From a bacterium (lineage in GTDB: Bacteria; Patescibacteriota; Saccharimonadia; UBA4664): a DNA stretch of 64,000 nucleotides. Of the stretch, positions 5,834-58,696 are shown in pieces (within the stretch, counting starts at the first letter, position 1; the number at the start of each line of letters is the position of its first letter). A program made the position numbers and the translations under genes. A model generated the notes under the pieces. That model made no database searches and was not told where the DNA came from. It saw only the letters and a list, made by a program, of their open reading frames with translations. The stretch spans positions 968,729-1,032,728 of the forward strand of contig CP064960.1 in NCBI GenBank assembly GCA_016699105.1, in the 5' to 3' direction.

Positions 5834-5863
5834 AACTTTGGGTAGTATACGCTAAATTTAACC

Positions 5864-13100: not shown

Positions 13101-13654
13101 TGAGTTGCCCGTTCATGCTCGTGCGCTTGGAGTTCTAAATAATAGTTGCCGCGCCCAAATGTGGTGTCGTACCAGGTAGCGATGCGTTCGGCTTCAGGCA
13201 AATTGCCATCAACTATGTGGGTAGCCACTTCGCCGCCAGCACAGGCTGACAAGGCAATAAGCCCCTCGTGATATTGCTCGAGGAGTTGATGGTCAATCCG
13301 CGGTTTGCCGTAAAATCCTTCCAGCTGACTGATACTGATGAGTTTGACTAAATTGTGATAGCCCGCAGTCGTTTCGGCGAGTAATACGAGGTGAAATGGG
13401 TTGAGATCTTGGCGGCCTGCTTTATCTAAATGACTTCGGGGAGCGACATAGGTTTCTACGCCAATAATTGGTTTGACGCCCATTTTGTGAGCGGTTTTAT
13501 AAAATTCGACGACGCCTGAAAGTGTTCCATGGTCAGTAAGGGCCACTGCACCCATACCCAATTCTTGGACACGTTCCAGCATGCCGGGTACTTTTTGCAA
13601 GCCGTCGAGCAACGAATAATGACTATGGTTATGTAAATGGACAAAACCACTCAT
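10145..13654 (-). CDS. dnaE: DNA polymerase III alpha subunit DnaE (at least five apparent frameshifts)
   Basis: PHP domain start MSGFVHLHNHSHYSLLDGL and polymerase core (11357-13654). The rest of the C-terminal half (fingers subdomain) is spread over pieces at 10990-11268, 10844-11206, 10369-10887 and 10145-10573. Junctions are at about 11474 (A run), 11429 (G run), 11095 (A run), 10868 (8-nt A run) and 10586 (A run). Confidence 0.9.
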
Positions 13655-13882
13655 GGGCGCACCTCAACTTCCCCCTTGTTACCACTCAAGCTTACCAAAT
13701 GACATCGTTTGGCGGCAGTCTGGTTTTTGCGGTTAACTGTGGTGTGGTGTGAATAGCCGAGTGACAGTTTAAAACAAATATGGTCGCAAATTGAGACACA
13801 TGTTGTTGTATTGCAAGGATGCTTTCATTTGTGGCTTTAATAAGCCTTGTACAATCCTTTTGCTTGCATAGTTCTAACACAG

Positions 13883-42129: not shown

Positions 42130-42268
42130 TGTTGGCCTCGATGGTCTCGATTTTGCCATCGCCAATGTAGGGCCCGGCGATGAAGACGATTTTCATCGGG
42201 CGAGAGCCGAGGGGTGCCCAGGGGGGTGGTATCTGGAGGAGGGTGGTCATGGGCAGATTGTAGCAGAT
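42130..42268. repeat. 137-bp direct repeat, copy B (includes a truncated second copy of the DUF4406 start)
   Basis: Encodes MTTLLQIPPPWAPLGSRPMKIVFIAGPYIGDGKIETIEAN, then diverges. Confidence 0.8.
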
Positions 42269-42287
42269 TGGCTTATCTGGGGCTAAG

Positions 42288-42989
42288 TTAGCCGTGCCGC
42301 AACTCAAGCCGATCTTTGATTTCACGCCAACCCGGCAACTTTTGGTCGAGCAATGCTTTAAACTCGGACCCGTGGTTCTTAATAGTGAGATGACACAGCT
42401 CATGCACCATAACGTACTCGATCGCAGACTTATCTGACTCAATTAGTCGCGGGTTGACCACCACGTTTCCGGCGTTTGTGAAGCTACCCCATCGTTTCTG
42501 CATCTCTTTTACGATCAAACGAGGAGGCTCCACGCCATCGAAGTATCTTAGTGCTTTTGCGTAAACTTCACGAAATACGAAGTTGCGGCGATTTCTGTAC
42601 CAGCCTTCGATCAGCATTTTCGTATACTCGGGCATTTGTGCGCCCATTGATGTCGATACCCTAATCTTTCCTTTGAGTAGGCCGACGGAGTCCGTTTTGC
42701 CAGCTTCAACAATCAGTTCGTATTGCCGCCCGAGATACATGAGGCTTTCGCCTGAAACATACGATCTCTCGTAGCGCTTTTTGTGATACCGATCAAACAT
42801 CCGAAGCTGTTTATCGAGCCACCGCCACTTACTCTCAAGAAATTTTGTAATGCGCTCCTCGCCAGCATCATGAGGAGCCCTTAGTGTGATGGCTTGATCT
42901 GGCTCCACCGTAAGCCGGAGACTCTTCCGCGGCTCGTAAATGAGCTCGTACGAATATTCATACTGCCCATAACGAAAGACCCGTTTCAT
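42288..42989 (-). CDS. YgjP/DUF45 (SprT-like) metal-dependent hydrolase
   Basis: 233-aa ORF with HExxH (MVHELCHL). It is coupled to the 3' end of hsdR by a 4-nt overlap, its usual genomic context. Confidence 0.75.
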   Translation of the reverse strand: MKRVFRYGQYEYSYELIYEPRKSLRLTVEPDQAITLRAPHDAGEERITKFLESKWRWLDKQLRMFDRYHKKRYERSYVSGESLMYLGRQYELIVEAGKTDSVGLLKGKIRVSTSMGAQMPEYTKMLIEGWYRNRRNFVFREVYAKALRYFDGVEPPRLIVKEMQKRWGSFTNAGNVVVNPRLIESDKSAIEYVMVHELCHLTIKNHGSEFKALLDQKLPGWREIKDRLELRHG

Positions 42990-45900
42990 AGTTGGATGAA
43001 CACGTCGTGGTTGTTCTCTGCAAGTATCATGACATCGGTAATGATTGTTTCAATTTGGTCGTAGCTCAGGTCAATGCCCATCTTGCCCTTTACCTCGTCG
43101 TACAGATAGTCATCGAGAAGGCTGCGCATTTGGCGTTTGGTTTCATGGCTGTGCCACCAGTCAACTGTCGCGCTTTGCTGAACCATTTCGTTCATGCCTA
43201 GCACGGCCTGCTGATAAATTGCAGGACTAGATGCCCAGACCCCGAGAGTTGTTTCCAGGTTGCGGTAGAGAATGTCGGCACCCGGTTTGGCGGTAACTTC
43301 TGCTGGCAGCGAGTCGTCGCGCTTGCTCAGTACCGTATCACTTATGAGTCGCAGCTGTTTGAGCGCCTCGATGTCGGCGAGCTTTTTCTGGCGCATCTCT
43401 TCAATAATCTTTGAGATCTTTTTCGAGAATCTAGCATAGAACTCAGGATCGGTAGATAGCCGCTCGGTAATTGTCTTTTGGGTTTGGGCCGCAATAGCTT
43501 CAGCTTTCGACTTGTCAGACCCAAGCTCTGCAATAGCCTTCTCGAAGAGTTCTTTGTCCGTAATATCGATTTGTTCAGTGAGGAGCTCGGCTTCATCGGC
43601 CTTGATATTGTCATCCATAATCTTGATGAGCGCCAATTTGTAAGGCCGGAGATCGGTTTGGTCGGCGTAACGCAGATTAGCCGATTTACGTAGCTCGAGA
43701 AACTTTTTGCATTCGTCACGATACATATGCAGATGCGGGAATTTGGTCGCAAAATCCTGGAGCGTCATCGACTCGCCAAATAGCCGGATGAACTCGTTGA
43801 GAGCAAAAACGAATTGCTTACGCGTTGGCTCATCAGCCAAGAATTGTAGGTATGCCTCGTCGTCGTGAGCCACACCGTTAAATAGGTCGTGGAGCGCGGC
43901 GTAGGCTGACTCGAGTTCAATAATCTTGTCGCCGACATCGACCAATGCACCCTTTACGTCATTTTCATCGTAATTGCCAAACAACTGCATGGCCGTATGA
44001 ATGTTTTGGGCGTTCTCTGAGTAGTCGATGATAAACCCTGCCGTCTTGGGCAAGGTAGGGTTGTCATAGAGGCGGTTCACGCGAGCGATGGCTTGAAGCA
44101 AGTTATGATCGGTTAGCTCACGAGCCAGATACAGCACCGTATTACGCGGAGCGTCAAAACCGGTGAGGAGCTTATCAACCACGATCAGGATTTCGATACC
44201 GTCATCGTTATACTTGAAGCTATCCACGACATCCTTCTCATACGAAAGCAGGCTCTGATATTTCTCTTTAACGTCCTTGAGATAGTCGTCGACTTCTTTC
44301 TTGTGGTCGTCGCCTTCGTTGATGATGCCATTTTCATCCGAGATGACGAGCGCCGTATTGATGAGGCCGCTATCAGTAAAGAACTTCTGCATCATGACGG
44401 CCGAGAACTTTGACGGTGCCACGATCTGAGCCTTGAGGCCGGAGCCCTGTAGCTTATCAATGTAATGGCGTTGGATATCAAAGGCGATCTCGACGATGCG
44501 CTTCGGGTTATCTTTGATGACCCCCTGAGCTACTTGCTTCTGAAGCTGCCTCTTCTTTTCTTCAGATAACCCGGCGGTTAGGCGGTCAACGAGCCGGTCA
44601 ATTTCTTCTTTATCCTGCTTCAAATCAACATACCTGCCCTCATAGATAAGCGGCAAGATGATCTTGTCTTCCAGGGCATCGTCGATAGTGTACTTATCGA
44701 TGAAGTCACCGAACTTGCCACGTGAGCGCTCATTTTTGAGGAGCGGCGTTCCGGTAAAGGCGATGTAGCAGGCATTCGGTATCACGAGGTTCATTTCGCT
44801 GTTGGCGTCGCCGCCCTGGGAACGGTGAGCCTCATCAATGAGTACAAAGATGTTCTCGTCTGGGTCCTTAAACCCGGCGCGCTTGCGAGCGGCGGTCTGA
44901 AATTTATGCACGAGCGTCGTAACTATGCGTTTGTCTTTGAATTGAATGAGATCGAGCAGGTGTTCACCGCTCGTTGCCTGAATCACATCTTTCTTGAGGC
45001 CGGCATTATTGAACGTGCCCTTGATCTGACGGTCGAGATCTTTCCGATCGGTCACGATGATGATGCGGGGGTTCGTGATAGTACTGTCTTCAATGAGTGC
45101 CCGCACAAACATCACCATGGTCAGTGATTTGCCCGAACCTTGAGTATGCCAGACAATACCGCCCTGGCGGCGCTCCCTATTTCCAGCTGCTCAGTTTGCT
45201 TGATGCGCCGCAGAATTTTATGGATCGCAAAGTACTGCTGGTAGCGCATCACTTTCTTGGTGCCAGCATCATAAAGGATGTAGTTCTTGGCGATATCGAG
45301 CAGGCGGGCCTTGTCGAACATCGCGACAACGCTGCGGTCCTGGGCGGTTACTTCCCGCTCAAGTTTTTGGGTATAACCGAGTACCGATCCGTTGAGATCG
45401 GCCAGGAGATCAGAGTATGTGCTGGCCGGGATTGGTTGCGACATAAGCGCCCGCACGCGTCCATCCAGAACGCTATTCGGTGTATCCTTCTCGCGCCAGG
45501 TGGCGTAGAACTTGGCCGGGGTTCCGGTGGTGCCGTAGCGCATGTCTTTCCCGTTGGTGGCGATGAGCAATTGCGTGTAGATAAATAACCGCGGGCAGCG
45601 GTCGACGCTTTGGTTCCGAACCTGCTGATTCATAGCTTCATCAACTTCGACACTGGATTTTTTGTTCTCGATGATCACAAATGGTATGCCGTTCACAAAG
45701 CACACGATGTCGGGCCGAATGTTGCCCTTGCCGCTGGCAGGGTACTCAACGGTGACATGGAATTCGTTATTTTCTGGCATGTCAAAATCGATGAACCGGA
45801 AACTTTTGGATTCATACTTGCCGTCGAGCAACATCTTAATGGTGCGTCCGCCGCGAGTTGGCATGACGGTGTGATAGACGGTTTTTGAAGTGTCGACCAG

Positions 45901-46164
45901 GCCTTCAAACTGAAGATTTTCCAGCTCGTCGATGGCGTCATTGATATCTTTGTCGCTAAACTGGTGGAGCGCATCGGCGTGTTCGTAGCGATTGATCTTC
46001 ATGAGCGCGCGGGCGGCGATGTCTTTGAGAATGAAGTTTGAGGTATCATCGCCACGCTGACGGAGGGCCTCGCCGACCGGGATGTAGTTATAACCGAGGT
46101 TGATGAGCAGCTCGACGAATGGCAGCTGGGATTGCTTGGCCTCGTCGAAATTGATGTCATGCAT
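42986..46164 (-). CDS. hsdR: Type I restriction enzyme R subunit (one apparent frameshift)
   Basis: N-terminal nuclease-like domain (45121-46164, true start MHDINFDEAKQ) and SF2 helicase body (42986-45118, TGTPLL, VLIDEAHRSQ). They are separated by a missing A at about 45180 (expected ...EQLENRERRQGGIVWHTQGSGKSLTMVMF). Confidence 0.9.
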
Positions 46165-47387
46165 GGGTGGGTTCCTTTGCGAGAGGCTTGAGGGTTTCGG
46201 GCACGCGGATTTTGCCAGTGACGAGGTTGTTGAGGAGGTATTTACGCTGAGTTTTGATGATGGCGAGCTTGCGCTCGAGGGTGGTAATTTCGTCATCAAC
46301 GGCAGTCAGAATTTGGGCGATTGCAATTTGCTCTTCGGGTTCGAGGGGAACATAAACATCTGCATCAAAGAAATCAACCGCACTTATATTCAGCAAGCCG
46401 TGGTTTCGCGCCCCTTCCTGTGTAACCGTGGATAAAACCTTGTTGAACAGACCCTGCTCAAAGTAGTGCTGAAGGTAGTCTGATTCAATTCGGGTCGGTG
46501 TAAACGCTAAATAGAGTGTTGATACCGCTCCTTTTTTGTACGCGTTTAGTCTTTTTATAGCACCCATCGGGTAGCCTTTTGAATAACTCTTATTGTAAGC
46601 GAACTCGCCATTGTGCAAGAGCAAATAGCCTGACAGGTCAATGGCGGCTATGCGTTTAGAAAAATATTCCCCTTGTGCAACCAATCCATCTTGTGCCGAT
46701 ATAGTGAGCGCATTCTGGTTTAACTCGCTGTTTTTTCTATTGATTCTCGTACAAACCTCACCCAGTTTCAGGCTCCCCCAGTTTGACCGAAACCCTGGTA
46801 GCCTTATTGCCCCCGTAAGCAGCCCTTCCGCTAGACCATCTTTTAACCGCCTTTTTACTCTGATCGTCACCTGCGACACATTAATTAACTTGTCGCAAGT
46901 CTCTAGCATTGCGACTATACGCTGTTGTACGGGTATAGGTGGAGTCAGAATTTGTAAATCCTTGATCGATTGCAAAAGAGATTTTTATTGTTGAACCAGT
47001 GAGTTCATCAAGCAATCTGGCCCTAGTCTGATCGCATAAAAGAAAATAGTATAAGTATTTTCTTTCTAGGTCGTCTGCACAGTTGATATATGCAGCGCTT
47101 TTCCCGAGTACAATTTGTTCGCCATTGTAAAGCGCAAGACTACCAATCGTGCCATTGATTGACATCAGAATGGTAGAGCCATCAAGGAGCTTCTTATGTT
47201 TTTCGTATTCATTGAGATCAACCTCCTTTGTGCTCCGGCTAATTCGTATCTCTCCGTCAACCAAATTATTGCCGTTGATGAAGAAAATGCCCGTACCGGT
47301 GCTATATTTTGGCGTGCCATGAATACCATCACTAATCTTAGTCGTGATGTCCTTAAGCTTCCACAACCGGTTGGTGTCATTTGCCAT
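46157..47387 (-). CDS. hsdS: Type I R-M specificity subunit (one apparent frameshift)
   Basis: TRD1 (46881-47387) and conserved repeat/TRD2 (46157-46975; ...LQILTPPIPVQQRIVAMLE..., C-terminal ...PLEPEEQIAIAQIL...). The junction is at about 46975 (T run). It overlaps the hsdR start by 8 nt. Confidence 0.85.
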
Positions 47388-47829
47388 CTTTGTCTCGTTT
47401 TTCTACGGCAGTTTTGGCATCATCGGGCAAAGCGTCATATAACGCCTCGATTTCTTTAGGCTCGGTAATTAGTTTTTGAGCGATAAAATTTATCAGGCTG
47501 AATAACGCTACTACCTTAGCTGGATCCTCATCTAAATTGATCTCGCCCGGGTGAACGGCGTTATTGCCCGTAATACGCAGCGCGTCCAATGCCTTCTGAA
47601 TAGTCGGGCTTAGTCCGGCATTCACAAGTTCTGCAATATCATCATTGATGTTCTTGCCTTTCTGTCCAAGTTGAACACAGAGCTTTTGGAGCCCTAGACG
47701 CAATAATGCGGCGGCTGCACGAGGCGAGTCGGCCAGTACCTGAGCGGCTTCATTGTAATCAGCCTGAATATCGGGGTTCAGGTCTCCATTCGGCTGGTCA
47801 ACCGTAATGCTTCGAGGCAAAACTAACAC
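47377..47829 (-). CDS. DUF4145 domain protein (RM-associated)
   Basis: 150-aa ORF with a DUF4145 pattern (RAAAALLRLGLQKLCVQLG). It overlaps the hsdS start. Confidence 0.65.
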   Translation of the reverse strand: MLVLPRSITVDQPNGDLNPDIQADYNEAAQVLADSPRAAAALLRLGLQKLCVQLGQKGKNINDDIAELVNAGLSPTIQKALDALRITGNNAVHPGEINLDEDPAKVVALFSLINFIAQKLITEPKEIEALYDALPDDAKTAVEKRDKDGK

Positions 47830-48075
47830 CTCATTTAGCCAAATACAGTAACCACTACAGTGCTCACACTTTGAAAACTACATATTGTTCAGGAAGTAAT
47901 TCGCTAAACTCGCTTGACCCATAAATATTTGATCGGGTGCCCCTGTGAGGTCTTGAGTAGCCATCAGATGAAGCCGTAAGGTGGGACCAAAATTGCTTTG
48001 CAAAGACCCCGCATACGCCACAGTGGAACGCAGCGACGCTAAAGCCGGGGGCTATATATTCATTTCTCGCCATGG

Positions 48076-48879
48076 CTACTCCCCCAACGATTCTTCTTGA
48101 TTTTGCTTCTTAATACGAGTCTTCGCCTTATTTATGCCATCGGCAACAGGCAAATTCTCGGGCATAGTGCCGCCCAGTTGGTCGATGGTTTGGCGAACTT
48201 TTTGGCCGACTTCGTAGTGGGCAAGGTTTGCCTCGGCTTCGCCCTGAATGCCCTCGCGCTTGAGCTTGGCGTCGGCCTGAGTGGCGCGAAAGAGGTTGGC
48301 AGCCAGTTCTTCGCTACCCATATGGTCGAGAATTCCTTGGGATTTTTTGAGCTGCTTCTTCTTATGGATTTGTTGGGCGGTCATCTTATATAGGCCTTTA
48401 TAACCAGCATTCTGGAAAGTGCCAAAGTTTGATACTCCAGCCTTTTTGGCAGAACTCGCAAGTGAGGCGTTGTGTACCGAAATTTCATCTCGAAGCACTA
48501 CTCGCTTGCCGTCTTCGACGAGAGTATCACTGTCTTCTTGACGCTTGGTTTGGATAGCGAAGTAGGTTTGACCGAGCGCTACCACCTCTTTAGTCGGGTC
48601 GGAGTTCTGTATTATCAAATAGCAGGCGTAGCGACTAAGTTTTACGTCATCGATCTCGCGCTGTGCGCCCGAGCCAAGGACTACCATTTCGAGAATATCC
48701 TCGAAATGGTCGTGGACAACTTGACCACTGTTTTTGGCGGACTCTTTGGCTTTCGTGATTACTGGCAAGAAGTGACGGTATTCGGAGTAGCCAAGAACCT
48801 TACATAAATCTCGCGCCATCCAGTATTCGGCTTGGCTATAATCGACCAGCTTAATTTCTTCAAATACCGTGATGTTCAC
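48076..48879 (-). CDS. dinD: DNA damage-inducible protein D-like
   Basis: 267-aa ORF with strong similarity to the DinD N-terminal region (FEEIK...YWMARDLCKVLGYSEYRHFLPVITKAKESAKNSGQVVHDHFEDILEMVVLGSGAQREIDDVKLSRYACYLIIQN). Confidence 0.75.
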   Translation of the reverse strand: MNITVFEEIKLVDYSQAEYWMARDLCKVLGYSEYRHFLPVITKAKESAKNSGQVVHDHFEDILEMVVLGSGAQREIDDVKLSRYACYLIIQNSDPTKEVVALGQTYFAIQTKRQEDSDTLVEDGKRVVLRDEISVHNASLASSAKKAGVSNFGTFQNAGYKGLYKMTAQQIHKKKQLKKSQGILDHMGSEELAANLFRATQADAKLKREGIQGEAEANLAHYEVGQKVRQTIDQLGGTMPENLPVADGINKAKTRIKKQNQEESLGE

Positions 48880-49073
48880 TGCCTACCCCCTAACTGTATG
48901 CTTAATGTACCGATTGTGGCTCTGTATAGCGCTGATACCATTTCGAGGAGATGCTCGAAATGGTTGTGGAAAACTATCTTAACCGCATCGAAATCGATGC
49001 GGTTACTAGATACTAATTTCATGAGTATAGCAACGTGCAATTCTTGCATGTTACTCGTCTCGTACGGATTCAT
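48876..49073 (-). CDS. Small ORF containing a diverged partial duplicate of a dinD internal segment
   Basis: 65 aa, overlapping hsdM and dinD by 4 nt each. HFEHLLEMV matches dinD HFEDILEMV, and the DNA segments are about 80% identical over about 45 nt. Confidence 0.35.
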   Translation of the reverse strand: MNPYETSNMQELHVAILMKLVSSNRIDFDAVKIVFHNHFEHLLEMVSALYRATIGTLSIQLGGRQ

Positions 49074-50584
49074 GATTTAATCCCCAACTGCTTCAAATAA
49101 TCGTCCATCTGGGCTTCCAGACGGGCTAGCTCGGGCTTGAGGGCTTCGAGCTCTTTGATGGTGGCCTGGATGTCGATTTCGGCTTCTTCCACAAAGGTGT
49201 CAACGTAGCGGGTGATGTTGAGGTTGAAGTCGTTTTCCTGGATTTCGTCGAAGGTGGCGACATGGGCGAATTTGTCGACGTCCTTGCGCTCTTTGAAGGT
49301 ATTGAAGATAGTGTCGATGTGCTCAGGCTCGAGGGTGTTGCGGGCTTTGCCGGGTTTGAAGAGCTTGGAGGCTTCAATGAATAGCACATCCTTTTTGTCG
49401 TGGTTGGCACCACCAACTTCGCGGGAGCGGTCGATTACCAAAATAGCGACAGGGATGCCAGTGGTCTGGAATAGGCCGGCCGGTAGCCCAATGACAGCAT
49501 CGATGATGTTTTCGCGCAAGAAGGCTTCACGGATTTTACCTTCCACGCCGCCCCGGAAGAGCACACCGTGTGGAACAATGACTGCAATGCGGCCGGTCTT
49601 GGGCTTGGCGGTTTCCACCATGTGCGTCACGAAAGCGTAGTCACCTTTGTCCTTGGGCGGGATGCCACGCCAGAAGCGCTTGTACCGGTCGTCTTCGGCA
49701 TTTTCGGCACCCCATTTCTTGAGCGAGAAGGGCGGATTGGCCACACAGATATCAAACTTCATGAGGCGATCATTTTCGACGAAGAGCGGATTGTTGAGAG
49801 TGTCGCCCCATTCCAGGTGTGCGGAGTCTTTGCCGTGGAGGAACATGTTCATGCGAGCCAGCTGGTAGGTGCTGCCGGTTGATTCCTGGCCATAGAGGGC
49901 ATAGTTATTGGAGCCCTGCTTTTCGACTTCGGCGCCAGCGAGCAGCAAGAGGCCGCCACTACCGACGGCCGGATCGCAAATGCGGTCGCCAGGTTTGGGC
50001 TGAGCCAACCGTGCCACCAATGACGCCACGCTTTTGATCGTGAAGAACTCACCAGCCTTCTTGCCGGCGTCGGCGCCGAACTTATCAATGAGGTACATGT
50101 ACGAGTTGCCAATGACGTCTTCATTGATGTGGGCGAGATCAATGGAGTTGAAGTCGTCGAGCAAATGGCGGAGCATCTTGTTTCGCTGCTCGAGCCTGCC
50201 GAGCGTGGACTCAGAGTTGAAGTCGACGCTGAAGACGCCTTCAAGCTTGGCTTTGTTAATATCCTCGATGCGGTGCAGGGCCTTGTTGATTTCTTCGCCG
50301 ATGTTGTCTTCATCTTTCTTGGCGTAGACGTAGTCAAAGGTGGCTTCTTCTGGCAAGTAAAACCGCTCGGTTTTCATCTTGTTGGCAATGCGCTCGGTGT
50401 CGCCGCCGAAGCGATCTTTGTAAACCTCATACTGCTTTTTTGACAGATCACTGAGGTATTTAAAGAACAACATCGTGAGCACGTAGTCTTTGTAGATACC
50501 GGCATCGAGGGAGGTGCGGGACGAGTCGGCCGCATTCCAGAGTATGTTATTGAGCTCTTCTTGGGTGTAGGTTCTGGCGGTCAT
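49070..50584 (-). CDS. hsdM: Type I R-M N6-adenine DNA methyltransferase subunit
   Basis: 504-aa intact ORF with an HsdM N-terminal domain, SAM motif and catalytic NPPF (ANPPFSLKKWG). Confidence 0.92.
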   Translation of the reverse strand: MTARTYTQEELNNILWNAADSSRTSLDAGIYKDYVLTMLFFKYLSDLSKKQYEVYKDRFGGDTERIANKMKTERFYLPEEATFDYVYAKKDEDNIGEEINKALHRIEDINKAKLEGVFSVDFNSESTLGRLEQRNKMLRHLLDDFNSIDLAHINEDVIGNSYMYLIDKFGADAGKKAGEFFTIKSVASLVARLAQPKPGDRICDPAVGSGGLLLLAGAEVEKQGSNNYALYGQESTGSTYQLARMNMFLHGKDSAHLEWGDTLNNPLFVENDRLMKFDICVANPPFSLKKWGAENAEDDRYKRFWRGIPPKDKGDYAFVTHMVETAKPKTGRIAVIVPHGVLFRGGVEGKIREAFLRENIIDAVIGLPAGLFQTTGIPVAILVIDRSREVGGANHDKKDVLFIEASKLFKPGKARNTLEPEHIDTIFNTFKERKDVDKFAHVATFDEIQENDFNLNITRYVDTFVEEAEIDIQATIKELEALKPELARLEAQMDDYLKQLGIKS

Positions 50585-51150
50585 TTGATGGCTCCTTCGA
50601 TTGCGGTGAGCGATTGGTTAAGTATTGATTGGCTGAGAGCGGTTTTTCGTTCAAGGATGGCTCGTTGGCGCATCAAGTTTTGGTGTAGCGCGACGTAGAG
50701 CGCTTGGCGGTCGAGCGGAATATCGGGAACCGGGAGCTGGCGGAGAGTATCAATGAGGAGGGTCTTGATGGATGAGCCGGTAGAGTTTTGGGCGAAGTAG
50801 GCTTGGGCGGCGGGACTATTAAGATGTATTGCCAAATACTCTGGTAAAAGACGGCTCTCATCGGGTTTCATTATGTAGAGCGATGAGCTGGCAATTATCG
50901 GCTCGTCGCAGTTTAACGCGGCGGCACGAAAGCTACCGCGAGCTGCGAGTAAGACAACCATGCCGGTTTCTGGTGCTGTGCGGTAGTCTGCGCCCGTTAC
51001 CCGCGGAAGGCTCTCTAGTTCGACGCCGACGGCCGTCACATCTTTTGATTGGGCTACGCGAACATCTCCAGCAGGGTCATGAAGCACCGGGCCACGGAAG
51101 GTGTAGCCGGATTGGAGCTTGAGTATGAGTTCGTGTAGCTGCGTGGTCAT
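50581..51150 (-). CDS. HsdS-like single-TRD half subunit
   Basis: 189-aa ORF: one target-recognition domain plus the conserved HsdS repeat (SSIKTLLIDTLRQLPVPDIPLDRQ). 4-nt overlap with the hsdM start. Confidence 0.6.
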   Translation of the reverse strand: MTTQLHELILKLQSGYTFRGPVLHDPAGDVRVAQSKDVTAVGVELESLPRVTGADYRTAPETGMVVLLAARGSFRAAALNCDEPIIASSSLYIMKPDESRLLPEYLAIHLNSPAAQAYFAQNSTGSSIKTLLIDTLRQLPVPDIPLDRQALYVALHQNLMRQRAILERKTALSQSILNQSLTAIEGAIK

Positions 51151-51224
51151 ACAAGGAATGTATCACACTATTTGTACATTTGCAACTGCGCACTGACTGC
51201 TACTGTAGCATATCTACTGGATAT

Positions 51225-51425
51225 CTATGACTTCCACTTACCAAACCGCTTCATCACCCATTGGATTGTCGGCAGGATGTAGTAAACGTCGTCTGAATTC
51301 CGAATGTCAAATCGACTTACCGGTGTATTGTAATGCTCGAAGCTATTAGGCATGTAGGTAATGCGGCCGTCGGGATCCATAATATCGACGTCCTCAGGGC
51401 GAATGCTCGGGATTTCAATTGTCAT
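51225..51425 (-). CDS. Small hypothetical protein (66 aa), translationally coupled to the upstream nuclease gene
   Basis: 4-nt overlap with the 51422-52179 gene. No family recognised. Confidence 0.4.
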   Translation of the reverse strand: MTIEIPSIRPEDVDIMDPDGRITYMPNSFEHYNTPVSRFDIRNSDDVYYILPTIQWVMKRFGKWKS

Positions 51426-52179
51426 TTTTGGTTATGCGGCTTGATATAGATGACCGTACTAGCGCCATTCTCGCCAAGAGCTAAACCGATGTGACCCGAG
51501 CGCGGGTTTTCCTTGATGCGCTCATCGATCATCATGAGGCGGTCGCACAGTTCTTCGTAGATTGGCAGCCATTCAGCTTTGGCGCCGGTGAAGTGATCGG
51601 CGACGGTGTACTTTTTGACCTCTTTACTAACCTCATTGATGGTCTGGCTTTTCTTGGAAATCGTGTTGATCGACTCGCTAGAATCCGGGGTTTTGAGGCG
51701 ATTAAACAGTACTGTGTCGTTGCTGTAATATTTGGCTTCCCAGAGCTCCATCGGCAGATCGCGGAAGTTGATGGCTTGCTGTTGGTAGGTGGTGAAGGAA
51801 TTAGCCACAAAGATTACCCGCGACTGCGACCAATCAACGTCGGTTTTGCCGAGGTGCTTGGACATGTGCTCGTTGTATTCAAGGATGAAATCGGCTTTAT
51901 GGTTGAGCATGAGCGAAAGGTAGGCGTAGCCCTGATCAACCACGCTAAAGCTGTGATCGCGCTTGTACTCAATGATTACAAAGGCTTTGGCCTCGGCATC
52001 GAAGGCCAGCGTGTCGACGCGTAGGCCGTTGAGCTGGAATTCGGTGGTCACAAATATAAGGCCAAAGACAGCTTCAAGATTGGCTTCGGCGAGGCGCTGG
52101 AGATCGCTTTCCTTGTACGATTTGGGATTGAGCTCGTTGATGGAGGTGAGCTTGTTCTGGTGGCGGAGAAGATTGGCAT
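51422..52179 (-). CDS. HsdR_N-like PD-(D/E)xK nuclease-domain protein (one apparent frameshift near the start)
   Basis: About 252 aa. ...SDLQRLAEANLEAVFGLIFVTTEFQLNGLRVDTLAFDAEAKAFVIIEYKRD matches the HSDR_N/Mrr-cat D...(D/E)xK pattern. The C-terminal domain is unrecognised. The start atgcca(a)atc lacks an A at about 52173. Confidence 0.55.
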
Positions 52180-52220
52180 GATACAGCGTATTTTACGCTC
52201 GACTTCAGGTCGAGGCTAGC

Positions 52221-52814
52221 TTATATTTTCTCGGCGAGCTTCCGAATTGGCTGCAGTTTGGCCTTACTCCCCTCATCAAGCATCGCAAACTCAATGTACC
52301 TGATCTTGTTCATTGTTGCTTCTTCACCCACTACACTATCAAGGATCAGGAAGCCTAGCCCAGCATATCGCTCCTTGGCCGCATCATCATAATCTGGAAT
52401 ATATATGACAATGTCTAAATGCTCATTGTCTCGCTCACTTGTGAAATACACATCCTCAACCAACATATTGTGGCCGTCATAGGTAAAAGAATCTGTTGAG
52501 ATGGGCGGCTTGAAGGCCGTGATTTTCCAGCCAGGAATGCTTGGAGCCGCCGCCACCATCTCGCGTACTCGGTCGGCATATGTCCGAACCCCGTCACACG
52601 ATACAAAGAACTCGCGCGCACCCTCTCCTAGCGGGCCGATAAGGAAGCACAGGTATTTGTCCGTTTTATCAAATTGCTTTGCGAGTAGCCCAATCAGCCG
52701 ATCCTGATCATTCTCTAGCTGGCTGTATTCATCCGCATGCTGCGCGAACCAAGTCCAAAATTCCGCATAAGTCATAGCGCGGCGTTTAAATATATTCATG
52801 AGAACATCATACAT
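52221..52814 (-). CDS. Hypothetical protein (possibly DUF695-like)
   Basis: 197-aa intact ORF immediately downstream of the Fic gene. Confidence 0.3.
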   Translation of the reverse strand: MYDVLMNIFKRRAMTYAEFWTWFAQHADEYSQLENDQDRLIGLLAKQFDKTDKYLCFLIGPLGEGAREFFVSCDGVRTYADRVREMVAAAPSIPGWKITAFKPPISTDSFTYDGHNMLVEDVYFTSERDNEHLDIVIYIPDYDDAAKERYAGLGFLILDSVVGEEATMNKIRYIEFAMLDEGSKAKLQPIRKLAEKI

Positions 52815-52961
52815 GAGACACTAGCCTCAACGGAGCCCCCACATACCAAACCCACCAACCACCAAATTACATCTCATCTCCGGCGACGGGTTGTGGGCAA
52901 AGAAGGCGCGGCAGGTGACGCCCGACGACACGCACATACAGGTGGACGCGCTCAGAATTCG

Positions 52962-53654
52962 CTAGCGCCCAATCTTCCAAACCCCCTTCTCCCGGAAGGC
53001 CGGGATGGTTTGGCGGCGGGCGGCGTTGAGCAGGGTGCTGGTTGACTGGTCAGTGGATTTTGCATAGTCGGCTAGGTCGATAATTTCGAGCCCTTTGAGA
53101 TATGCCAGGCGCTTGTGCAGAGACTCTATCAAGGCCAACGAGAGGGTGCGGTCAAGTAGTGTTGTTTTGCGGTCATCCTGGTAGGCCTGGAAGGCCGGGT
53201 AGTAGTGGTCGGCTTTGCCCTTATTGCGAATGATGAGCTGGGGATAGCCGAGCTTGGTGAGCTGGAGATTGATGAGCACGCGGCCAATCCGGCCGTTGCC
53301 ATCGCAGAAGGGGTGGATTCGCTCAAACTCAAGGTGAAAGATTGAAATGCGCTCAAGGAAGTATCGGGTATGCTCAGAGTCGTAGTCGGTGATGGCGCTT
53401 TCGATGAGCTGCTCGACGTGTTCGGGAGCCGGCGCGATGTGCGAACCTACCCGAACGTACTCGTGCTGTTTGCGGAAACGACCGGCAATTGCGTCGTCGA
53501 TGCCGCCAATCTGCATTTGGTGCAACAGGAGCATGTTCTCGGGGTTAAACTCGATGTCAGGTTTGCTGGCAAGGTATTCCGACACGCGAGCTAAGTTTTT
53601 AGCCTCGTATAGCTCCCGCGTAGACACGCTCCGCATAACTTGCTGCTCAAGCAA
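52962..53654 (-). CDS. Fic/Doc-family protein
   Basis: Fic motif HPFCDGNGRIGR. Confidence 0.85.
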   Translation of the reverse strand: MLEQQVMRSVSTRELYEAKNLARVSEYLASKPDIEFNPENMLLLHQMQIGGIDDAIAGRFRKQHEYVRVGSHIAPAPEHVEQLIESAITDYDSEHTRYFLERISIFHLEFERIHPFCDGNGRIGRVLINLQLTKLGYPQLIIRNKGKADHYYPAFQAYQDDRKTTLLDRTLSLALIESLHKRLAYLKGLEIIDLADYAKSTDQSTSTLLNAARRQTIPAFREKGVWKIGR

Positions 53655-53873
53655 AATGCGCTCGGTTTCCTTTTATATCAAGGATTATATGTCAATGTAC
53701 CCGTTAATATTGTGTGTTTTATGAACAAATTAACGGTCTTGAATCGAGTGGCCTATCTCGGTATATTGAGTGTACAAATGGGTTTCGACCTCGCCCCCGT
53801 ATCCAGCAATGGTGCGGGGGAGCAATTTTTATCGACCTTTCAGTTATCATATAACTCAACGGAGCCCATACAT

Positions 53874-54453
53874 GTCTAATAAACCCGATGACTTTCTAAC
53901 CCTTACCTTCGCCACCCCAGCAGTATGGGAGGCCTGGCTGGCCAAAAACCATGCCACGTCTACTGGGCTGTGGCTCAAGATTGCCAAGAAGGCCTCGGGT
54001 GTGGCGTCGGTGACCTATGATGAAGCGCTGGCTGTTGCGCTGTGTTATGGCTGGATTGACGGCCTCAAGCGCACGTATGATGCCACCTATTTTATCCAGC
54101 GGTTTACGCCGCGGCGGGCTCGGAGCATCTGGAGCAAACGCAATATCGGCAAAATTACTGAACTGACGGCGGCGGGGCGAATGCAACCGGCGGGACAGGC
54201 TGAGGTAGAACGGGCGCAGGCCGATGGCCGATGGGCGGCAGCCTATGATTCGCCGGCCAATATGGAAGTGCCAGCCGATTTTGTGGCGGCAGTCGAGCGC
54301 AGCCCGGTGGCAGCAGCCACCTTTGCGAAATTGAGCCGGTCTAATCTGTATGCCATTGCTTGGCGGTTGACTACGGTTAAGACGGCGGTGGGGCGGCAGA
54401 GGCGATTTGATGCATTATTAGCTATGCTCGAGCGGGGCGAGACGATTCATTAG
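53874..54453 (+). CDS. YdeI/OmpD-associated family protein
   Basis: 193 aa from MSNKPDDF. YdeI-like pattern (LWLKIAKKASGVASVTYDEALAVALCYGWIDG). GC-rich. Confidence 0.55.
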
Positions 54454-54509
54454 GTATAAAGGGGTGTACCGGCCGCCGAACCTCTGGTGAGGAACGACGG
54501 CCGGGTGGG

Positions 54510-54998
54510 TCAGGCGAGATCGCTCTGCTCGATGTAGCCGTTCACCGTGTCGACGATGTCGCTGACGAGAGACGGATGAGCGCCGTTGTAACCGGGGAGA
54601 TCAACTGTAAGTGTGTCAGGTAGACAGAGATCGTAAATCTCGTTATCTTTGCCGTGTCCAGTATGGCGACAGTTGAAACTGCCATCGAACTGGTACGAGA
54701 ACTGAAATGCACTCCAGGACACCAAGATTCCGGCACCGATTGAGTCATCCCAGCCTTCGTAGAGGAAGAAATACGCACCGGCGTCAGTGATCTGGCTGAC
54801 CCGGGCTACCAAGCGGAACCGATCCTGACACCCTACCCTGATGAACTCGAGTGTGAATTCGAGCTCGACGTCGCGGTTTGAAGCAATCCGCAATTCGGCA
54901 TGTCCGAGATGCGTGGCAACAGATCGCATCGTGCGATCGGCCAAATCGGTGTAGTCGGAGCTAGTGAGACGGGCGGGAGTCTGTCTGGTCGTGTTCAC
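54510..54998 (-). CDS. Hypothetical protein
   Basis: 162-aa ORF. No family recognised. Confidence 0.35.
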   Translation of the reverse strand: MNTTRQTPARLTSSDYTDLADRTMRSVATHLGHAELRIASNRDVELEFTLEFIRVGCQDRFRLVARVSQITDAGAYFFLYEGWDDSIGAGILVSWSAFQFSYQFDGSFNCRHTGHGKDNEIYDLCLPDTLTVDLPGYNGAHPSLVSDIVDTVNGYIEQSDLA

Positions 54999-55137
54999 GG
55001 GTTGTCGACCTCATCTCTGATTGTGGGGCCGGTATAACCGGCGGGAACGCTTTGTAAGCAGAATGAATCCTGCTGTAAAGTGATAAATATTTTATCATAT
55101 TTTGTGCTTTATGTCTATAGGCCATAGCTGATAATCA

Positions 55138-55166
55138 TTGACTTTGGTACTTAATCCTTGTATTAT
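55138..55166 (+). promoter_or_regulatory. Near-consensus sigma-70-type promoter
   Basis: TTGACT, 17-nt spacer, TATTAT, about 65 nt upstream of the 55232 start. Confidence 0.45.
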
Positions 55167-55231
55167 AGCGACGGGCTTTTCGGATAATACCCCTAGTTCG
55201 TTCCTACCCAACTTCGACAGATTGGACGGCC

Positions 55232-56221
55232 ATGTCCGACCAACAATCTTGGTTCGCGATAGCAGGTTTCGTCATCGTGGCAGTTCTCGTGATCGTATTG
55301 AAAATCCGGTCAGATCGATCTGAACAGTGGCTGATGCGGCGCGCAAACATTGAGTCAACGCTCAATACTGCCTGTAATAAAGATGCATTTGGCAGTAGTC
55401 AGACAGAAATCGAAACAGCCGCTCGTACCATCAAGGACATCATGTATAGCGGTAACGATACTGACCAGAATATTTTGGCGTCCCTCTACCGTCACAATGA
55501 TATCAATAGAGCGGTCGAGGTAGCATTTAATGCTGCCAATAGGGCAGCTATGAAAGCGGAAATCGCGGCTTGCTTGATCGAACTGAATGCTTTGACGGAT
55601 GATCTCAACACGCGCGATGTTGAAGCCTATGCCAGAGCCCGCACGCGCCAGGTGGATTTGTGTGAGCGAATTCTCGATGGCACGCGCAACCTCGACCGCA
55701 TTAGTCAAAATGTAGTGTTGAAAGAGTGGCCGCTGTTTCAGCGGTTTGACGATGGCGAAACGTGGGTCAAGACGGCGCACCGCGATCTCATCTGGACCCT
55801 GTTTGAGGCCGCCGATACGGCCCATTCACTCGAGAATGTGGCTGATTATCTGCGCGTTATCGTTGAGCTGACGATGCGTCGTGAGGGATTGATGACCGAG
55901 TCGTACTTTGAGCATTATCACCGTCTGCGTGGTCTCTTGGCCGACACCTCCGTCGATGATCTGTACGGCTACGGCCTGCCAGGTGATTACGCCATACAGA
56001 TGATCGTTCATGCTGGTGTGGACGAGCTCGATGCAGAGAATGCAAAGCCCGATCTGGGCAAGATCTACATGGCAATTCTGTATTTGAAGGCTAATCCGTT
56101 GCTGTTTGCGTCATTTGAAACCACAGATTGGCTGAGCCGGCTGGAAGAAGCCAGGCTCCGCTTGATTGCCGACTGGATGGCTAGCCACCGGTCTACTACC
56201 CCCACTGCCCCAGAAGAATAG
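55232..56221 (+). CDS. Hypothetical membrane-anchored protein
   Basis: 329-aa ORF with an N-terminal TM (WFAIAGFVIVAVLVIVL) then a helical soluble domain. Confidence 0.45.
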   Translation: MSDQQSWFAIAGFVIVAVLVIVLKIRSDRSEQWLMRRANIESTLNTACNKDAFGSSQTEIETAARTIKDIMYSGNDTDQNILASLYRHNDINRAVEVAFNAANRAAMKAEIAACLIELNALTDDLNTRDVEAYARARTRQVDLCERILDGTRNLDRISQNVVLKEWPLFQRFDDGETWVKTAHRDLIWTLFEAADTAHSLENVADYLRVIVELTMRREGLMTESYFEHYHRLRGLLADTSVDDLYGYGLPGDYAIQMIVHAGVDELDAENAKPDLGKIYMAILYLKANPLLFASFETTDWLSRLEEARLRLIADWMASHRSTTPTAPEE

Positions 56222-56264
56222 GAAGATTAGGCCCTGTTATTCTGGGGCCTTTGCTGTGGTGAAC

Positions 56265-57028
56265 TAATTCGGGCGCAGGGTGCCGGCAAACACCTGCCAA
56301 GCCAGCAATGATTTAGCTACTAAACTCAGGATAATGTAGGCACGCTCACCGTAGAGATAGTTTTCCAAGGGCCGATTTTACGGTATTGCAGCACCATATT
56401 GACGGCAAACGCATTGAAGAACACAAAGATGGAAACGTAGATCCAGTAAACGAAAGTCGGGGGTTTGGAGCCATAGGCGGCGGCCGCCAGAAAGTAGGCG
56501 CCGATGACGAGCCAGGGCACAATACCGAGCAAGCACCCAATCCAATAGCTGAGCCAATTGGTACGCTTAGTAGTTTGGTTATGGACTTCCATGACCAATC
56601 CCATGAGATTCATACCCGCGGTGAGGGCAAATATCATCGCTAATGACGAGGCGTCATACACACCCACCAGTAAAGCGATGGCTACCATCATAGTGCTAGC
56701 AGACAAAGAGTACTCGATCCAACGTGCGCGGTTGATGCCGTCCTTGAGATCAGCTTCGTAGCGGCGGCGGTAGACAGTCACAATGGTGAAATGAGCCAGT
56801 GCCGATAGCGCAAAAAGCCCGCGACTAAGGGCGCTAGGGGCATTCGCCCAGCTGGCGGGTGGCGGTATCGAGGCTTTGGGTGGCGGGATTAAAGACCAGA
56901 TATGGCATGTTGACTGGCAAGCGGAAGTCTTTTGCCAGGGCCAGTACGGCGGCGGCTTGGAATAAATGCAGGACATAGGCGAACCAGTTAAGGCGATTCA
57001 AACTCATGAGCGAAATTGATGATGTCAT
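56265..57028 (-). CDS. Heliorhodopsin (two apparent frameshifts)
   Basis: Seven-TM protein with the heliorhodopsin signature throughout. N-terminus NRLNWFAYVLHLFQAAAVLALAKDFRLP. Middle: SALSRGLFALSALAHFTIV...ARWIEYSLSASTMMVAIALL...WIGCLLGIVPWLVIGAYF. C-terminus YGERAYIILSLVAKSLLAWQVFAGTLRPN, where K in LVAKS is the retinal Schiff-base lysine position. Frame junctions at about 56848 (extra G) and about 56362 (A run). Confidence 0.8.
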
Positions 57029-57153
57029 ATGTAAAGTTTAGCATAAGCGGTATACGTTTTCGGAAATTATATTTACAAATAAGCCTTTATATATCATAAT
57101 TTCTCAATCTGTAACACGAGTTACAGATATTCCCGGCTGAAGGGACAACTCAA

Positions 57154-58356
57154 GTGAGATCTCTCCGTTGGTTGGTAACCTCGGTAATTGCAGCGATTGT
57201 GCTCTTGTTCGGCAGCAGCTCGGCCTATGCCGCACCGCATGCCAGCATCGACAGTGCAACTATCGAGAAGAGCGTCGTCTCTCTGACGATCAATTGGTCC
57301 GGCAAGGTTCGTTATCCCACTAATAACAATGGTGAAGACGTCACTGACGCCATCGACCTCAAGGGTCATTGTACAGGCTTCTTTGTCTCCAAAGACGGCG
57401 ATATTGTAACTGCTGGCCACTGTGTCGATCCTGAAGAGGTCAAGATCAGCTTCATCAATGCGGCTATCAAGCATCTACAGGAAGACGGACGACTGACCGG
57501 CACGATCGACAAGGACTATATTTACCAGAACTGGACACCGGAAGGTGCTAGCAAGGGTTCTCAGCCCCTCGTGCAGGTCCGAGTCAGCCAGGCTGATGAC
57601 GTAAATGCGCCTGTATCGATGAATGACCGGCCGGCTCAGATCATTGCGGTCGACCCGTCAAACCAGGGTGATGTCGCGCTACTCAAGCTGTCAGGCGTCA
57701 CCGGGACTGTTCCCCTGGCTGTGGCAGCCCAGGCCCCCGCCATCGGTACACCCGTGACATCGGTGGGTTTTCCGGCGATTCTCAACACGGAGCAGGATGT
57801 ACCGAATCAGCGGGCCAGCTTCAAGTCTGGTGAGGTGAGCTCTGTCCAGACGACGGATGACGGTATTCCGCGTATCGAGGTCAGTTCCGAACTGAGCCAT
57901 GGGATGTCTGGCGGGCCGACCGTAGATTTGGCCGGCAACGTTGTGGGTGTCAACTCGCGCGGGTTCACATCTACGGGACAAGGTGCATTCAACTTCATCA
58001 CCGATCCGGGACGACTCACTTCCTACCTGACGGCGCATGGCGTGACGGCGAACGCGCCGCGAGCGACTGTGGCACCATCAGCATCGGGCCAGGCGTCACC
58101 CGGTCCCGTAGTGTCAGTTGCACCTGTCTCGTCCGATAGCTCTCCGAGCGGGGCAATGATTGCACTCGGTGTCGTCGTCGTGCTCGCTGCAATTGGCGGC
58201 GGGTTGTTCTTTCGGAATCGACAGGCTCGACCGGCACCGGCAGCTGTTGTATCGACGCCAGTCGCCAGCGGTACCGCTCTGTGCTCCTATGGTCACTTCA
58301 ACCTAGTAGGCGCTCAATTCTGCAGCACCTGCGGCACGGCACTGAAGACAACGTAG
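57154..58356 (+). CDS. Secreted, membrane-anchored S1 (trypsin-like) serine protease with cytoplasmic zinc-ribbon tail
   Basis: Signal peptide. Catalytic His (TAGHCV) and Ser (GMSGGP). Ser/Pro linker, C-terminal TM (IALGVVVVLAAIGGGLFF), then a CxxGH...CxxCG motif (CSYGHFNLVGAQFCSTCG). Confidence 0.7.
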   Translation: MRSLRWLVTSVIAAIVLLFGSSSAYAAPHASIDSATIEKSVVSLTINWSGKVRYPTNNNGEDVTDAIDLKGHCTGFFVSKDGDIVTAGHCVDPEEVKISFINAAIKHLQEDGRLTGTIDKDYIYQNWTPEGASKGSQPLVQVRVSQADDVNAPVSMNDRPAQIIAVDPSNQGDVALLKLSGVTGTVPLAVAAQAPAIGTPVTSVGFPAILNTEQDVPNQRASFKSGEVSSVQTTDDGIPRIEVSSELSHGMSGGPTVDLAGNVVGVNSRGFTSTGQGAFNFITDPGRLTSYLTAHGVTANAPRATVAPSASGQASPGPVVSVAPVSSDSSPSGAMIALGVVVVLAAIGGGLFFRNRQARPAPAAVVSTPVASGTALCSYGHFNLVGAQFCSTCGTALKTT

Positions 58357-58366
58357 GGTTCCACCG

Positions 58367-58405
58367 TCGCTGGTGTCTCGCACGAGACACCAGCGACTTT
58401 TCATT
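58367..58405 (+). terminator. Rho-independent terminator of the protease gene
   Basis: 13-bp perfect stem tcgctggtgtctc-gcac-gagacaccagcga, followed by cttttcattt. Confidence 0.7.
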
Positions 58406-58696
58406 TGATCATCGTAAAATTATTATTCGCAGGCGTAACCATCTTTATCGCGGTCAAGCTGATACCTGTCACTACCGGTGGCGGTGTCAGACAATACGTC
58501 ACGGAACTAATTCCCGAATCTTTTAATGGACTTCAATTTGGCTTTGGCGGCTTCGGTGGCACGGTCACGGGCGTGGCGTGTTGTAACCCGACAGTTTGCG
58601 CACGTATTGTAGAGCTGCTTCCCGCACTTCGACATCGGTGGCAGGCGGATCGAAGTTGAATAAAATTTTAATATTTCTACACATAATTCAATTTGC

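What the first reader, a model, noticed from the sequence alone, without database searches (positions are those of the whole stretch)
51225..52179. Candidate two-gene module: HsdR_N-like PD-(D/E)xK nuclease-domain protein plus overlapping 66-aa partner, next to the R-M operon
The 252-aa protein carries the N-terminal nuclease-type domain found at the start of HsdR (D...EYK pattern) but no helicase domain; its C-terminal domain is unrecognised. Its stop overlaps, in an ATGA motif, the start of a 66-aa protein of no known family. A stand-alone restriction-type nuclease with a tightly coupled small partner beside a type I system looks like a toxin/antitoxin-like or phage-sensing effector pair. 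I cannot place it in any named defence family.
Basis: inference. Interest (0 to 1): 0.6.

Follow-up and report, generated by a model that had tools for sequence, protein, structure and literature searches.

The report
One nuclease gene split by errors
The supposed nuclease-plus-small-partner pair is a single 318-aa gene of a catalogued but untested candidate phage-defence family (PADLOC PDC-S18), cut into pieces in this window by two one-base deletions in homopolymer runs, most likely assembly errors.

Summary
The two-gene module is not real. The ORFs and the ATGA overlap exist in the window as given. But the "252-aa" ORF is not one reading frame: the ATG at 52179 is out of frame with the nuclease body.

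Five independent short-read assemblies carry the same locus at 98.4-99.9% identity, with one intact 318-aa gene (P0001). Its sequence equals the window's three fragments joined. The window differs by two 1-nt deletions, CCC>CC at 52165-52166 and A6>A5 at 51425-51429. The second deletion creates the TGA stop and exposes internal Met253 as the "start" of the 66-aa ORF.

All 10 indel events across 16 kb lie at short runs of a repeated base. They also break hsdR, hsdS, a DUF4145 gene and heliorhodopsin. Elsewhere dnaE and a peptidase M1 gene are split, so assembly error is the likely cause.

The repaired protein matches PADLOC PDC-S18 end to end (E 7e-92). It has a NucS/RecB-like PD-(D/E)xK nuclease domain plus a DUF5655 domain with a MotA-CTD/YdhG-like fold, and the 66-aa "partner" is the C-terminal half of that domain. 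Homologues are single ~305-aa genes in at least 595 species, often beside or inside type I R-M operons.

The partner and toxin/antitoxin idea is not supported.

The parts
51225..52179 (-). One gene for a 318-aa PDC-S18 / DUF5655-family protein, broken in this window into three reading-frame pieces by two 1-nt deletions
   Evidence: P0001 (318 aa) is 100% identical over 97% of the query, which was the 52192..51425 reading frame joined to the 66-aa ORF. Five assemblies, L001-L005, encode it intact. The joined query matches PADLOC PDLC04945 over profile positions 7-298 of 302.
52165..52166 (-). Frameshift site 1: CC here, CCC in all five reference assemblies. It lies between codons 5 and 6 and puts the ATG at 52179 out of frame with the body.
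   Evidence: P0001 begins MPIFSRHQNKL
51425..51429 (-). Frameshift site 2: A5 here, A6 in all five reference assemblies. It creates the TGA stop (51424..51422) and makes internal Met253 (ATG 51425..51423) look like a start codon, giving the 'ATGA overlap'.
   Evidence: P0001 reads ...KPHNQKMTIEIPS... across the junction
51686..52179 (-). N-terminal NucS/RecB-like PD-(D/E)xK nuclease domain (about residues 1-165). Family-invariant E47 (52042..52040), D61 (52000..51998), E71 and K73 (51970..51962) and Q83/Y87 are all present.
51228..51598 (-). C-terminal DUF5655 domain (about residues 195-318), interrupted by frameshift site 2. The 66-aa ORF (51225..51425) is its C-terminal half.
42986..51150 (-). 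Adjacent type I R-M operon on the same strand, 74 nt downstream. Order: half-size HsdS-like 189 aa, HsdM, a 65-aa ORF, Bro-N, DUF4145, HsdS, HsdR. HsdS, HsdR and DUF4145 are each also broken here by homopolymer indels.
   Evidence: intact versions in L001 (HsdS 410 aa, HsdR 1059 aa, DUF4145 231 aa); indel sites 47877, 46982 and 45178

Best explanation
Window 51225..52179 (minus strand) holds one gene, not two. It encodes a 318-aa protein of the PDC-S18 / DUF5655 family.

Domains:
- The N-terminal ~165 residues form a NucS/RecB-like PD-(D/E)xK nuclease with a complete E-D-ExK-QxxxY motif set.
- After a ~30-residue low-confidence linker comes a ~125-residue DUF5655 domain. Its predicted fold resembles the T4 MotA C-terminal 'double-wing' DNA-binding domain and YdhG/YjbR-like proteins.

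Cause of the split: in this window the gene is cut by two single-base deletions in short homopolymers (C3>C2, A6>A5). These are most likely consensus errors of the assembly. The second one produces the apparent stop/start ATGA overlap and the spurious 66-aa 'partner'.

Inferred function (not shown): a stand-alone DNA endonuclease. The DUF5655 domain would bind DNA and position the PD-(D/E)xK site. It would act as an accessory or back-up restriction-type defence factor, encoded with R-M operons and probably co-transcribed with them.
For: Single gene:
- P0001 is 318 aa and 100% identical across both junctions.
- It is encoded intact in five independent assemblies from different samples with the same synteny.
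- Of the 120 best homologues, 119 are single proteins of 288-337 aa covering 89-98% of the query.
- In 74 of 79 species-level loci the ORF is 297-318 aa.
- Joining the pieces extends the PDC-S18 profile match from positions 7-236 to 7-298 of 302.

Artefact:
- There are 10 indel events in 16.2 kb at 99.8% identity. All lie at short runs of a repeated base; 9 are deletions in the window.
- 8 of the 10 lie in runs of at least 3 bases, which hold only 15% of bases.
- All five assemblies agree against the window at every site they cover. L003 and L004 differ from the window by only 2-3 substitutions but 4 indel events.
- hsdR, hsdS, DUF4145 and heliorhodopsin (three hits) are also broken.
- dnaE and a peptidase M1 gene are split, and the rplS (L19) piece begins only at Pfam profile position 38 of 111.

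Context:
- L006 has the gene 57 nt upstream of hsdM-hsdS-hsdR.
- 23 of 80 loci have Hsd-like genes within 10 kb.
- R-M families top the list of immediate neighbours.
- Homologues sit between hsdS and hsdR on Acinetobacter plasmids.
- PDC families were defined from genes embedded in BREX, DISARM and type I R-M systems (bioRxiv 10.1101/2024.01.29.577857).
Against: - I cannot see reads, so the deletions could be real mutations in this strain. The two ORFs would still be fragments of one gene.
- No member of the family has been tested for nuclease or anti-phage activity in anything I found.
- The Pfam hits to nuclease families are below their gathering thresholds. P0001 itself does not reach DUF5655 at E 0.01, so that domain assignment rests on homologues and on the predicted fold.
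- About 70% of the sampled loci show no type I-like R-M gene within 10 kb, so the association is frequent but not obligate.
- The DNA-binding role of DUF5655 is inferred from fold resemblance at moderate Z (7-9). The same fold class includes frataxin-like and chaperone-like proteins that do not bind DNA.
Confidence: 0.9

Rival explanations
1. The two deletions are real mutations. In this strain the PDC-S18 gene, and the neighbouring hsdR and hsdS, are true pseudogenes, a decaying defence island.
For: Defence genes are often lost or inactivated. The breaks cluster in R-M genes within 42-52 kb. I have no read-level data.
Against: The same kind of indel hits heliorhodopsin three times and two intergenic sites. 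dnaE and a peptidase M1 gene are also split, and the rplS piece lacks its N-terminal profile positions. All 10 events lie at short runs of a repeated base. Against L003 and L004, indel events outnumber substitutions. This pattern fits consensus error, not selection-free decay.
Confidence: 0.07
2. A real two-gene module: a truncated nuclease plus a separately translated 66-aa partner, acting as a toxin/antitoxin-like or sensor/effector pair.
For: The ORFs and the ATGA overlap exist in the window as given.
Against: The 66-aa ORF is colinear with, and 100% identical to, residues 253-318 of the intact protein. It completes a single folded DUF5655 domain in which β-strands from both pieces are predicted. 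No relative has the split. The upstream piece also lacks an in-frame ATG. Neither library tested on the 66-aa piece alone matches it (Pfam, PADLOC, NCBIfam).
Confidence: 0.01
3. Regulated expression by slippage. The short A-run (CAAAAATGA) allows -1 ribosomal or transcriptional slippage, so full-length protein is made at low level: phase-variable or frameshift-controlled defence.
For: A -1 slip of tRNA-Lys on the A-run would read ...QK-MTI..., exactly the intact sequence (my reading). Homopolymer phase variation is known for R-M genes (general knowledge).
Against: The tracts are short (2-5 nt here). A second frameshift at a CC site would need separate rescue. The same indels occur in unrelated and intergenic sequence. 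All other assemblies carry the in-frame version.
Confidence: 0.02

Closest known systems
PADLOC phage defence candidate PDC-S18 (HMMs PDLC04945 and PDLC04946); annotated in RefSeq as 'DUF5655 domain-containing protein' and in IMG as 'predicted transport protein'
   Same: Full-length profile match (E 7e-92, profile positions 7-298 of 302). Same length, same two-domain layout, single gene, and location beside or inside type I R-M operons.
   Different: Nothing substantive. In this window the copy is broken by two 1-nt deletions. Here it sits just upstream of the operon rather than between hsd genes.
Endonuclease NucS / EndoMS (archaeal and actinobacterial mismatch endonuclease)
   Different: In NucS the nuclease domain is C-terminal and follows an N-terminal dimerisation/DNA-binding domain. 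Here it is N-terminal and followed by DUF5655. The NCBIfam NucS equivalog scores are 12-14 bits against cut-offs of 216-252, so it is not a member. The genomic context is R-M, not repair.
Stand-alone PD-(D/E)xK defence nucleases: Shedu SduA, Hachiman HamA, type IV/IIS restriction enzymes (FokI cleavage domain, MspJI, AspBHI)
   Different: No sequence-level membership: PADLOC gives no hit to these systems. The recognition domain is different (DUF5655 rather than DUF4263, SRA or helicase partners).
PrrC, and other genes embedded in type I R-M operons
   Same: Homologues are embedded between hsdS and hsdR on the same strand, the architecture discussed for PrrC in bioRxiv 10.1101/2024.01.29.577857.
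   Different: PrrC is an ABC-ATPase-like anticodon nuclease acting on tRNA. This protein has no ATPase domain, and no guard relationship has been shown for it.

Membership tests
PADLOC PDC-S18 | Significant, near full-length match to the family HMM | tested here: met
   PDLC04945 at E 6.7e-92, query residues 14-311 on profile positions 7-298 of 302, for the joined sequence. The nuclease-frame piece alone reaches only profile position 236.
PADLOC PDC-S18 | Single-gene system found embedded in or next to BREX, DISARM or type I R-M loci | tested here: met
   Here the gene is 74 nt upstream of a type I R-M operon on the same strand. L006 has it 57 nt upstream of hsdM. Acinetobacter plasmids have it between hsdS and hsdR. 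PDC definition.
PADLOC PDC-S18 | Demonstrated anti-phage activity | not testable with these tools
   No paper held mentions PDC-S18. The only paper mentioning DUF5655 is a genome note. The PDC paper tested only HEC systems.
Pfam DUF5655 (PF18899) | Match to the domain model at the C-terminus | tested here: inconclusive
   The window fragment hits only profile positions 1-38 of 109 at E 0.12. Repaired P0001 has no hit at E 0.01. But 38 of 40 aligned homologues (48-67% identical) do hit, best E 1.4e-10, and the region aligns without gaps.
PD-(D/E)xK nuclease superfamily (RecB/NucS-like) | Core fold with catalytic D ... (D/E)xK on adjacent strands | tested here: met
Endonuclease NucS (NCBIfam NF002876 / NF003270) | Score above the equivalog cut-off; N-terminal NucS domain present | tested here: not met
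   14 and 11.7 bits against cut-offs of 252 and 216. The domain order is different.
HsdR (type I restriction subunit) | HSDR_N nuclease domain followed by an SF2 helicase/translocase | tested here: not met
   HSDR_N_2 scores only 16 bits against a cut-off of 25, and there is no ResIII or helicase domain. The real HsdR lies at 42986..46299.
Type II toxin-antitoxin pair | Two separately translated, co-conserved small genes | tested here: not met
   The 'second gene' is residues 253-318 of the first. No relative has it as a separate gene.

The most novel reading that the evidence does not exclude
The intact PDC-S18 protein is a real anti-phage nuclease that is functionally coupled to the type I R-M complex it is encoded with. 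For example, it could be held inactive by, or recruited through, Hsd subunits and released when phage anti-restriction proteins disable the R-M system (a PrrC-like guard). Alternatively it could use the DUF5655 double-wing-like domain to recognise modified or unusual phage DNA that type I enzymes miss. Nothing here excludes this, and nothing here shows it.
Probability: 0.15. Interest if true: 0.5.

Novelty: already known. Interest (0 to 1): 0.12.

Why it matters
As reported, the finding does not matter: the two-gene architecture comes from indel errors, and the same error pattern runs through the whole window. Every 'split', 'overlapping' or 'orphan small' ORF called from this window should be checked against frameshifts first.

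What remains is a clean, full-length example of a widespread gene family that is only computationally flagged as a defence candidate. It is present in at least 595 species, from candidate-phyla-radiation bacteria (CPR) to Acinetobacter plasmids and archaea. It repeatedly sits in or next to type I R-M operons. Testing one intact member would settle whether PDC-S18 is a defence gene.

Tried and rejected
- Pfam, NCBIfam and PADLOC on the 66-aa ORF alone gave no hit. This is explained by its being half a domain.
- Joining the pieces did not rescue a Pfam DUF5655 hit for this orthologue. The assignment had to come from homologues and from structure.
- A profile search of solved-structure sequences with alignment A1 gave no hit at E 1.
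- Literature: 'PDC-S18' gave 0 papers. 'DUF5655' gave 1 irrelevant genome note.
- I looked up the window's GatB protein to get independent contigs over the dnaE region. There was no exact match on record, so the evidence for frameshifts outside 42-58 kb rests on truncated or split Pfam domains, not on DNA comparison.
- The species representative of the window's own organism was not among the genome-contig hits (best 54% identity). I did not establish the organism. Its nearest relatives of this gene are Saccharimonadales.
- I considered the 197-aa ORF upstream (52221..52814) as a possible true partner. It has no family hit and is not the upstream neighbour in L006, L007 or L008, so I rejected it.
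- The programmed-frameshift and phase-variation reading is kept only as a low-probability rival.

Full report
**1. Observation**

On the minus strand the window holds a 66-aa ORF (51225..51425). Its ATG (51425..51423) overlaps the TGA (51424..51422) of an upstream ORF, so the ATGA motif is real. The upstream '252-aa protein' is not a single frame:
- The span 52179..51422 is 758 nt.
- The ATG at 52179 opens only a 43-aa, Ser/Pro-rich frame (52048..52179).
- The nuclease-like body lies in another frame. That frame is open from 52192, and its first canonical start is the GTG at 52051, giving 209 aa.
- The D...EYK pattern is present: D at 52000..51998 and E-Y-K at 51970..51962.

**2. The pieces are one gene**

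- PADLOC matched the body to phage defence candidate PDC-S18 (PDLC04945, E 8e-89), but only over profile positions 7-236 of 302. Pfam gave a faint hit to the first 38 of 109 positions of DUF5655 at the very end of the piece. Both results suggest a truncated protein.
- Joining the body to the 66-aa ORF extended the PDC-S18 match to positions 7-298 of 302 (E 7e-92).
- A database search with the joined sequence found P0001, 318 aa, 100% identical over 97% of the query. It reads MPIFSRHQNKL... at the N-terminus and ...KPHNQKMTIEIPS... across the supposed gene boundary.
- The other 118 best hits (all except the chimera-like P0002) are single proteins of 288-337 aa covering 89-98% of the query.
- In 80 species-level genome loci the ORF is 297-318 aa in 74 of the 79 where it could be measured.
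- In a 40-sequence alignment, the nearly invariant residues P262, D264, D269, P270, Y276, S280, D298, Y301 and Q308 all fall inside the 66-aa piece.

**3. Why it is split here**

P0001 is encoded intact on five contigs from five different samples (L001-L005), with the same neighbours as in the window. Alignment of L001 with window 42241..58486 (16.2 kb, 99.8% identity) shows 10 indel events:
- All lie at short runs of a repeated base: T2, T6, A5, T5, C4, C3, A6, T3, A6/(TC)n and G4.
- Nine are deletions in the window.
- Eight lie in runs of at least 3 bases, which hold 15% of the sequence.
- Every assembly that covers a site agrees with the others against the window. L003 and L004 differ from the window by only 2-3 substitutions in more than 5 kb, yet by 4 indel events.

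Two events lie in this gene:
- CCC>CC at 52165-52166, between codons 5 and 6. It throws the ATG out of frame.
- A6>A5 at 51425-51429. It turns CAA AAA ATG ACA into CAA AAA TGA, which makes the stop and exposes internal Met253 as a pseudo-start.

Adding the two bases gives 957 nt, which is 318 codons plus a stop and spans exactly 51225..52179.

The other events break heliorhodopsin (three times), DUF4145, hsdS and hsdR. All of these are intact in L001: 255, 231, 410 and 1059 aa.

Outside the compared region, dnaE is split (the finger domain is cut at 147 of 166 profile positions and HHH_6 at 35 of 90). A peptidase M1 domain is divided between two overlapping ORFs. The L19 (rplS) ORF piece starts at profile position 38.

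Frameshifts in essential genes, an indel-to-substitution ratio above 1, and strict homopolymer context point to consensus errors in the source assembly rather than biology. I cannot see reads, so a true pseudogene remains possible (about 7%). Either way the two ORFs are fragments of one gene.

**4. What the gene encodes**

The AlphaFold2 model of P0001, built with 40 homologues, has mean pLDDT 86. It shows two domains joined by a low-confidence linker at about residues 165-190.

- *Catalytic residues.* E47, D61, E71, K73, Q83 and Y87 are invariant. By established knowledge this is the RecB/NucS-type motif set.
- *Pfam.* DUF5655 is hit by 38 of 40 homologues. HSDR_N_2 (13 of 40) and NucS_C (11 of 40) are hit weakly.
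- *NCBIfam.* The NucS equivalogs fail by a wide margin.

**5. Context**

In the window, all on the minus strand, the order is: Fic (PADLOC PDC-S04/SoFic-like), a 197-aa unknown, this gene, a half-size HsdS-like 189-aa protein, HsdM, a 65-aa ORF, Bro-N, DUF4145, HsdS, HsdR, and a YgjP-like gene.

In relatives:
- In L006 the gene sits 57 nt upstream of hsdM-hsdS-hsdR.
- In L007 and L008 it lies about 1.6-2.7 kb upstream of a type IIG/ISP enzyme gene, with two to four small ORFs between.
- 23 of 80 loci have Hsd-like genes within 10 kb.
- Among 144 immediate neighbours the commonest Pfam families are ResIII (10), DEAD (9), N6_Mtase (7), SWI2_SNF2 (7), HSDR_N (6) and N6_N4_Mtase (5). EcoRI methylase, EcoRV, BrxL and serine recombinases also appear.
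- On Acinetobacter plasmids the homologue, annotated 'DUF5655 domain-containing protein', lies between hsdS and hsdR.

This is the 'embedding' signal from which PADLOC's PDC families were derived. That paper tested only its Hma-embedded candidates, not the PDCs (bioRxiv 10.1101/2024.01.29.577857). I found no paper on PDC-S18 and none on DUF5655 function.

**6. Mechanism**

*Shown:* one gene, two domains, an intact catalytic motif set, and recurrent R-M neighbourhood.

*Inferred:* the protein is a stand-alone DNA endonuclease. Its DUF5655 domain supplies DNA, or possibly partner, recognition. It serves as an accessory restriction-type defence factor co-expressed with R-M operons.

*Speculative (about 15%):* it may be coupled to the type I complex in a PrrC-like way.

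**7. Verdict**

The two-gene, toxin/antitoxin-like module is not real. What is there is a member of a catalogued, experimentally untested candidate defence family, broken in this window by probable assembly errors. Interest is low. The practical lesson is that ORF-structure findings from this window need a frameshift check.

Noticed in passing
window 42241-58486 (sites 56843, 56817, 56365, 54461, 52891, 52165-6, 51425-9, 47877, 46982, 45178): Ten homopolymer indel events relative to five independent assemblies. Nine are deletions in the window. They break heliorhodopsin (three times), DUF4145, hsdS and hsdR as well as the gene in question.
   Followed up: yes
window 5846-8469, 9445-9924, 10372-13663: Peptidase M1 and dnaE appear split into overlapping or adjacent ORFs in different frames, with Pfam domains cut at the breaks. 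The rplS (L19) piece lacks its N-terminal profile positions. This suggests the indel problem is window-wide.
   Followed up: partly
window 47377-49073: The type I R-M operon has genes embedded between hsdM and hsdS: a 65-aa ORF, a Bro-N domain protein (267 aa) and a DUF4145 protein (231 aa when intact). These are further 'embedded' genes of possible defence relevance.
   Followed up: no
window 50581-51150: A 189-aa half-size HsdS-like protein with one target-recognition domain (TaqI_C-like; PADLOC Specificity_I, E 2e-10), directly upstream of and overlapping hsdM. It is additional to the full-length hsdS further down.
   Followed up: no
window 52221-53654: A Fic-domain protein (PADLOC PDC-S04/SoFic-like, E 5e-22), followed by a conserved 197-aa ORF with no family hit. 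Both are on the same strand just upstream of the PDC-S18 gene, so this may be another candidate defence unit.
   Followed up: no
P0002 (454 aa, 1772-bp ENA contig): Identical to P0001 up to about residue 235, then continues into an unrelated ~220-aa C-terminus. It is either a chimeric contig or a recombinant with the DUF5655 domain replaced.
   Followed up: no
L089 4162-7042 (Acinetobacter towneri plasmid pNDM_SCLZS30): Three genes are embedded between hsdS and hsdR: an HNH endonuclease, the DUF5655 homologue and a further PD-(D/E)xK family protein.
   Followed up: no
window 42291-43049: A YgjP-like (SprT-like metallopeptidase fold) gene lies immediately downstream of hsdR on the same strand. 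L001 has the same arrangement.
   Followed up: no
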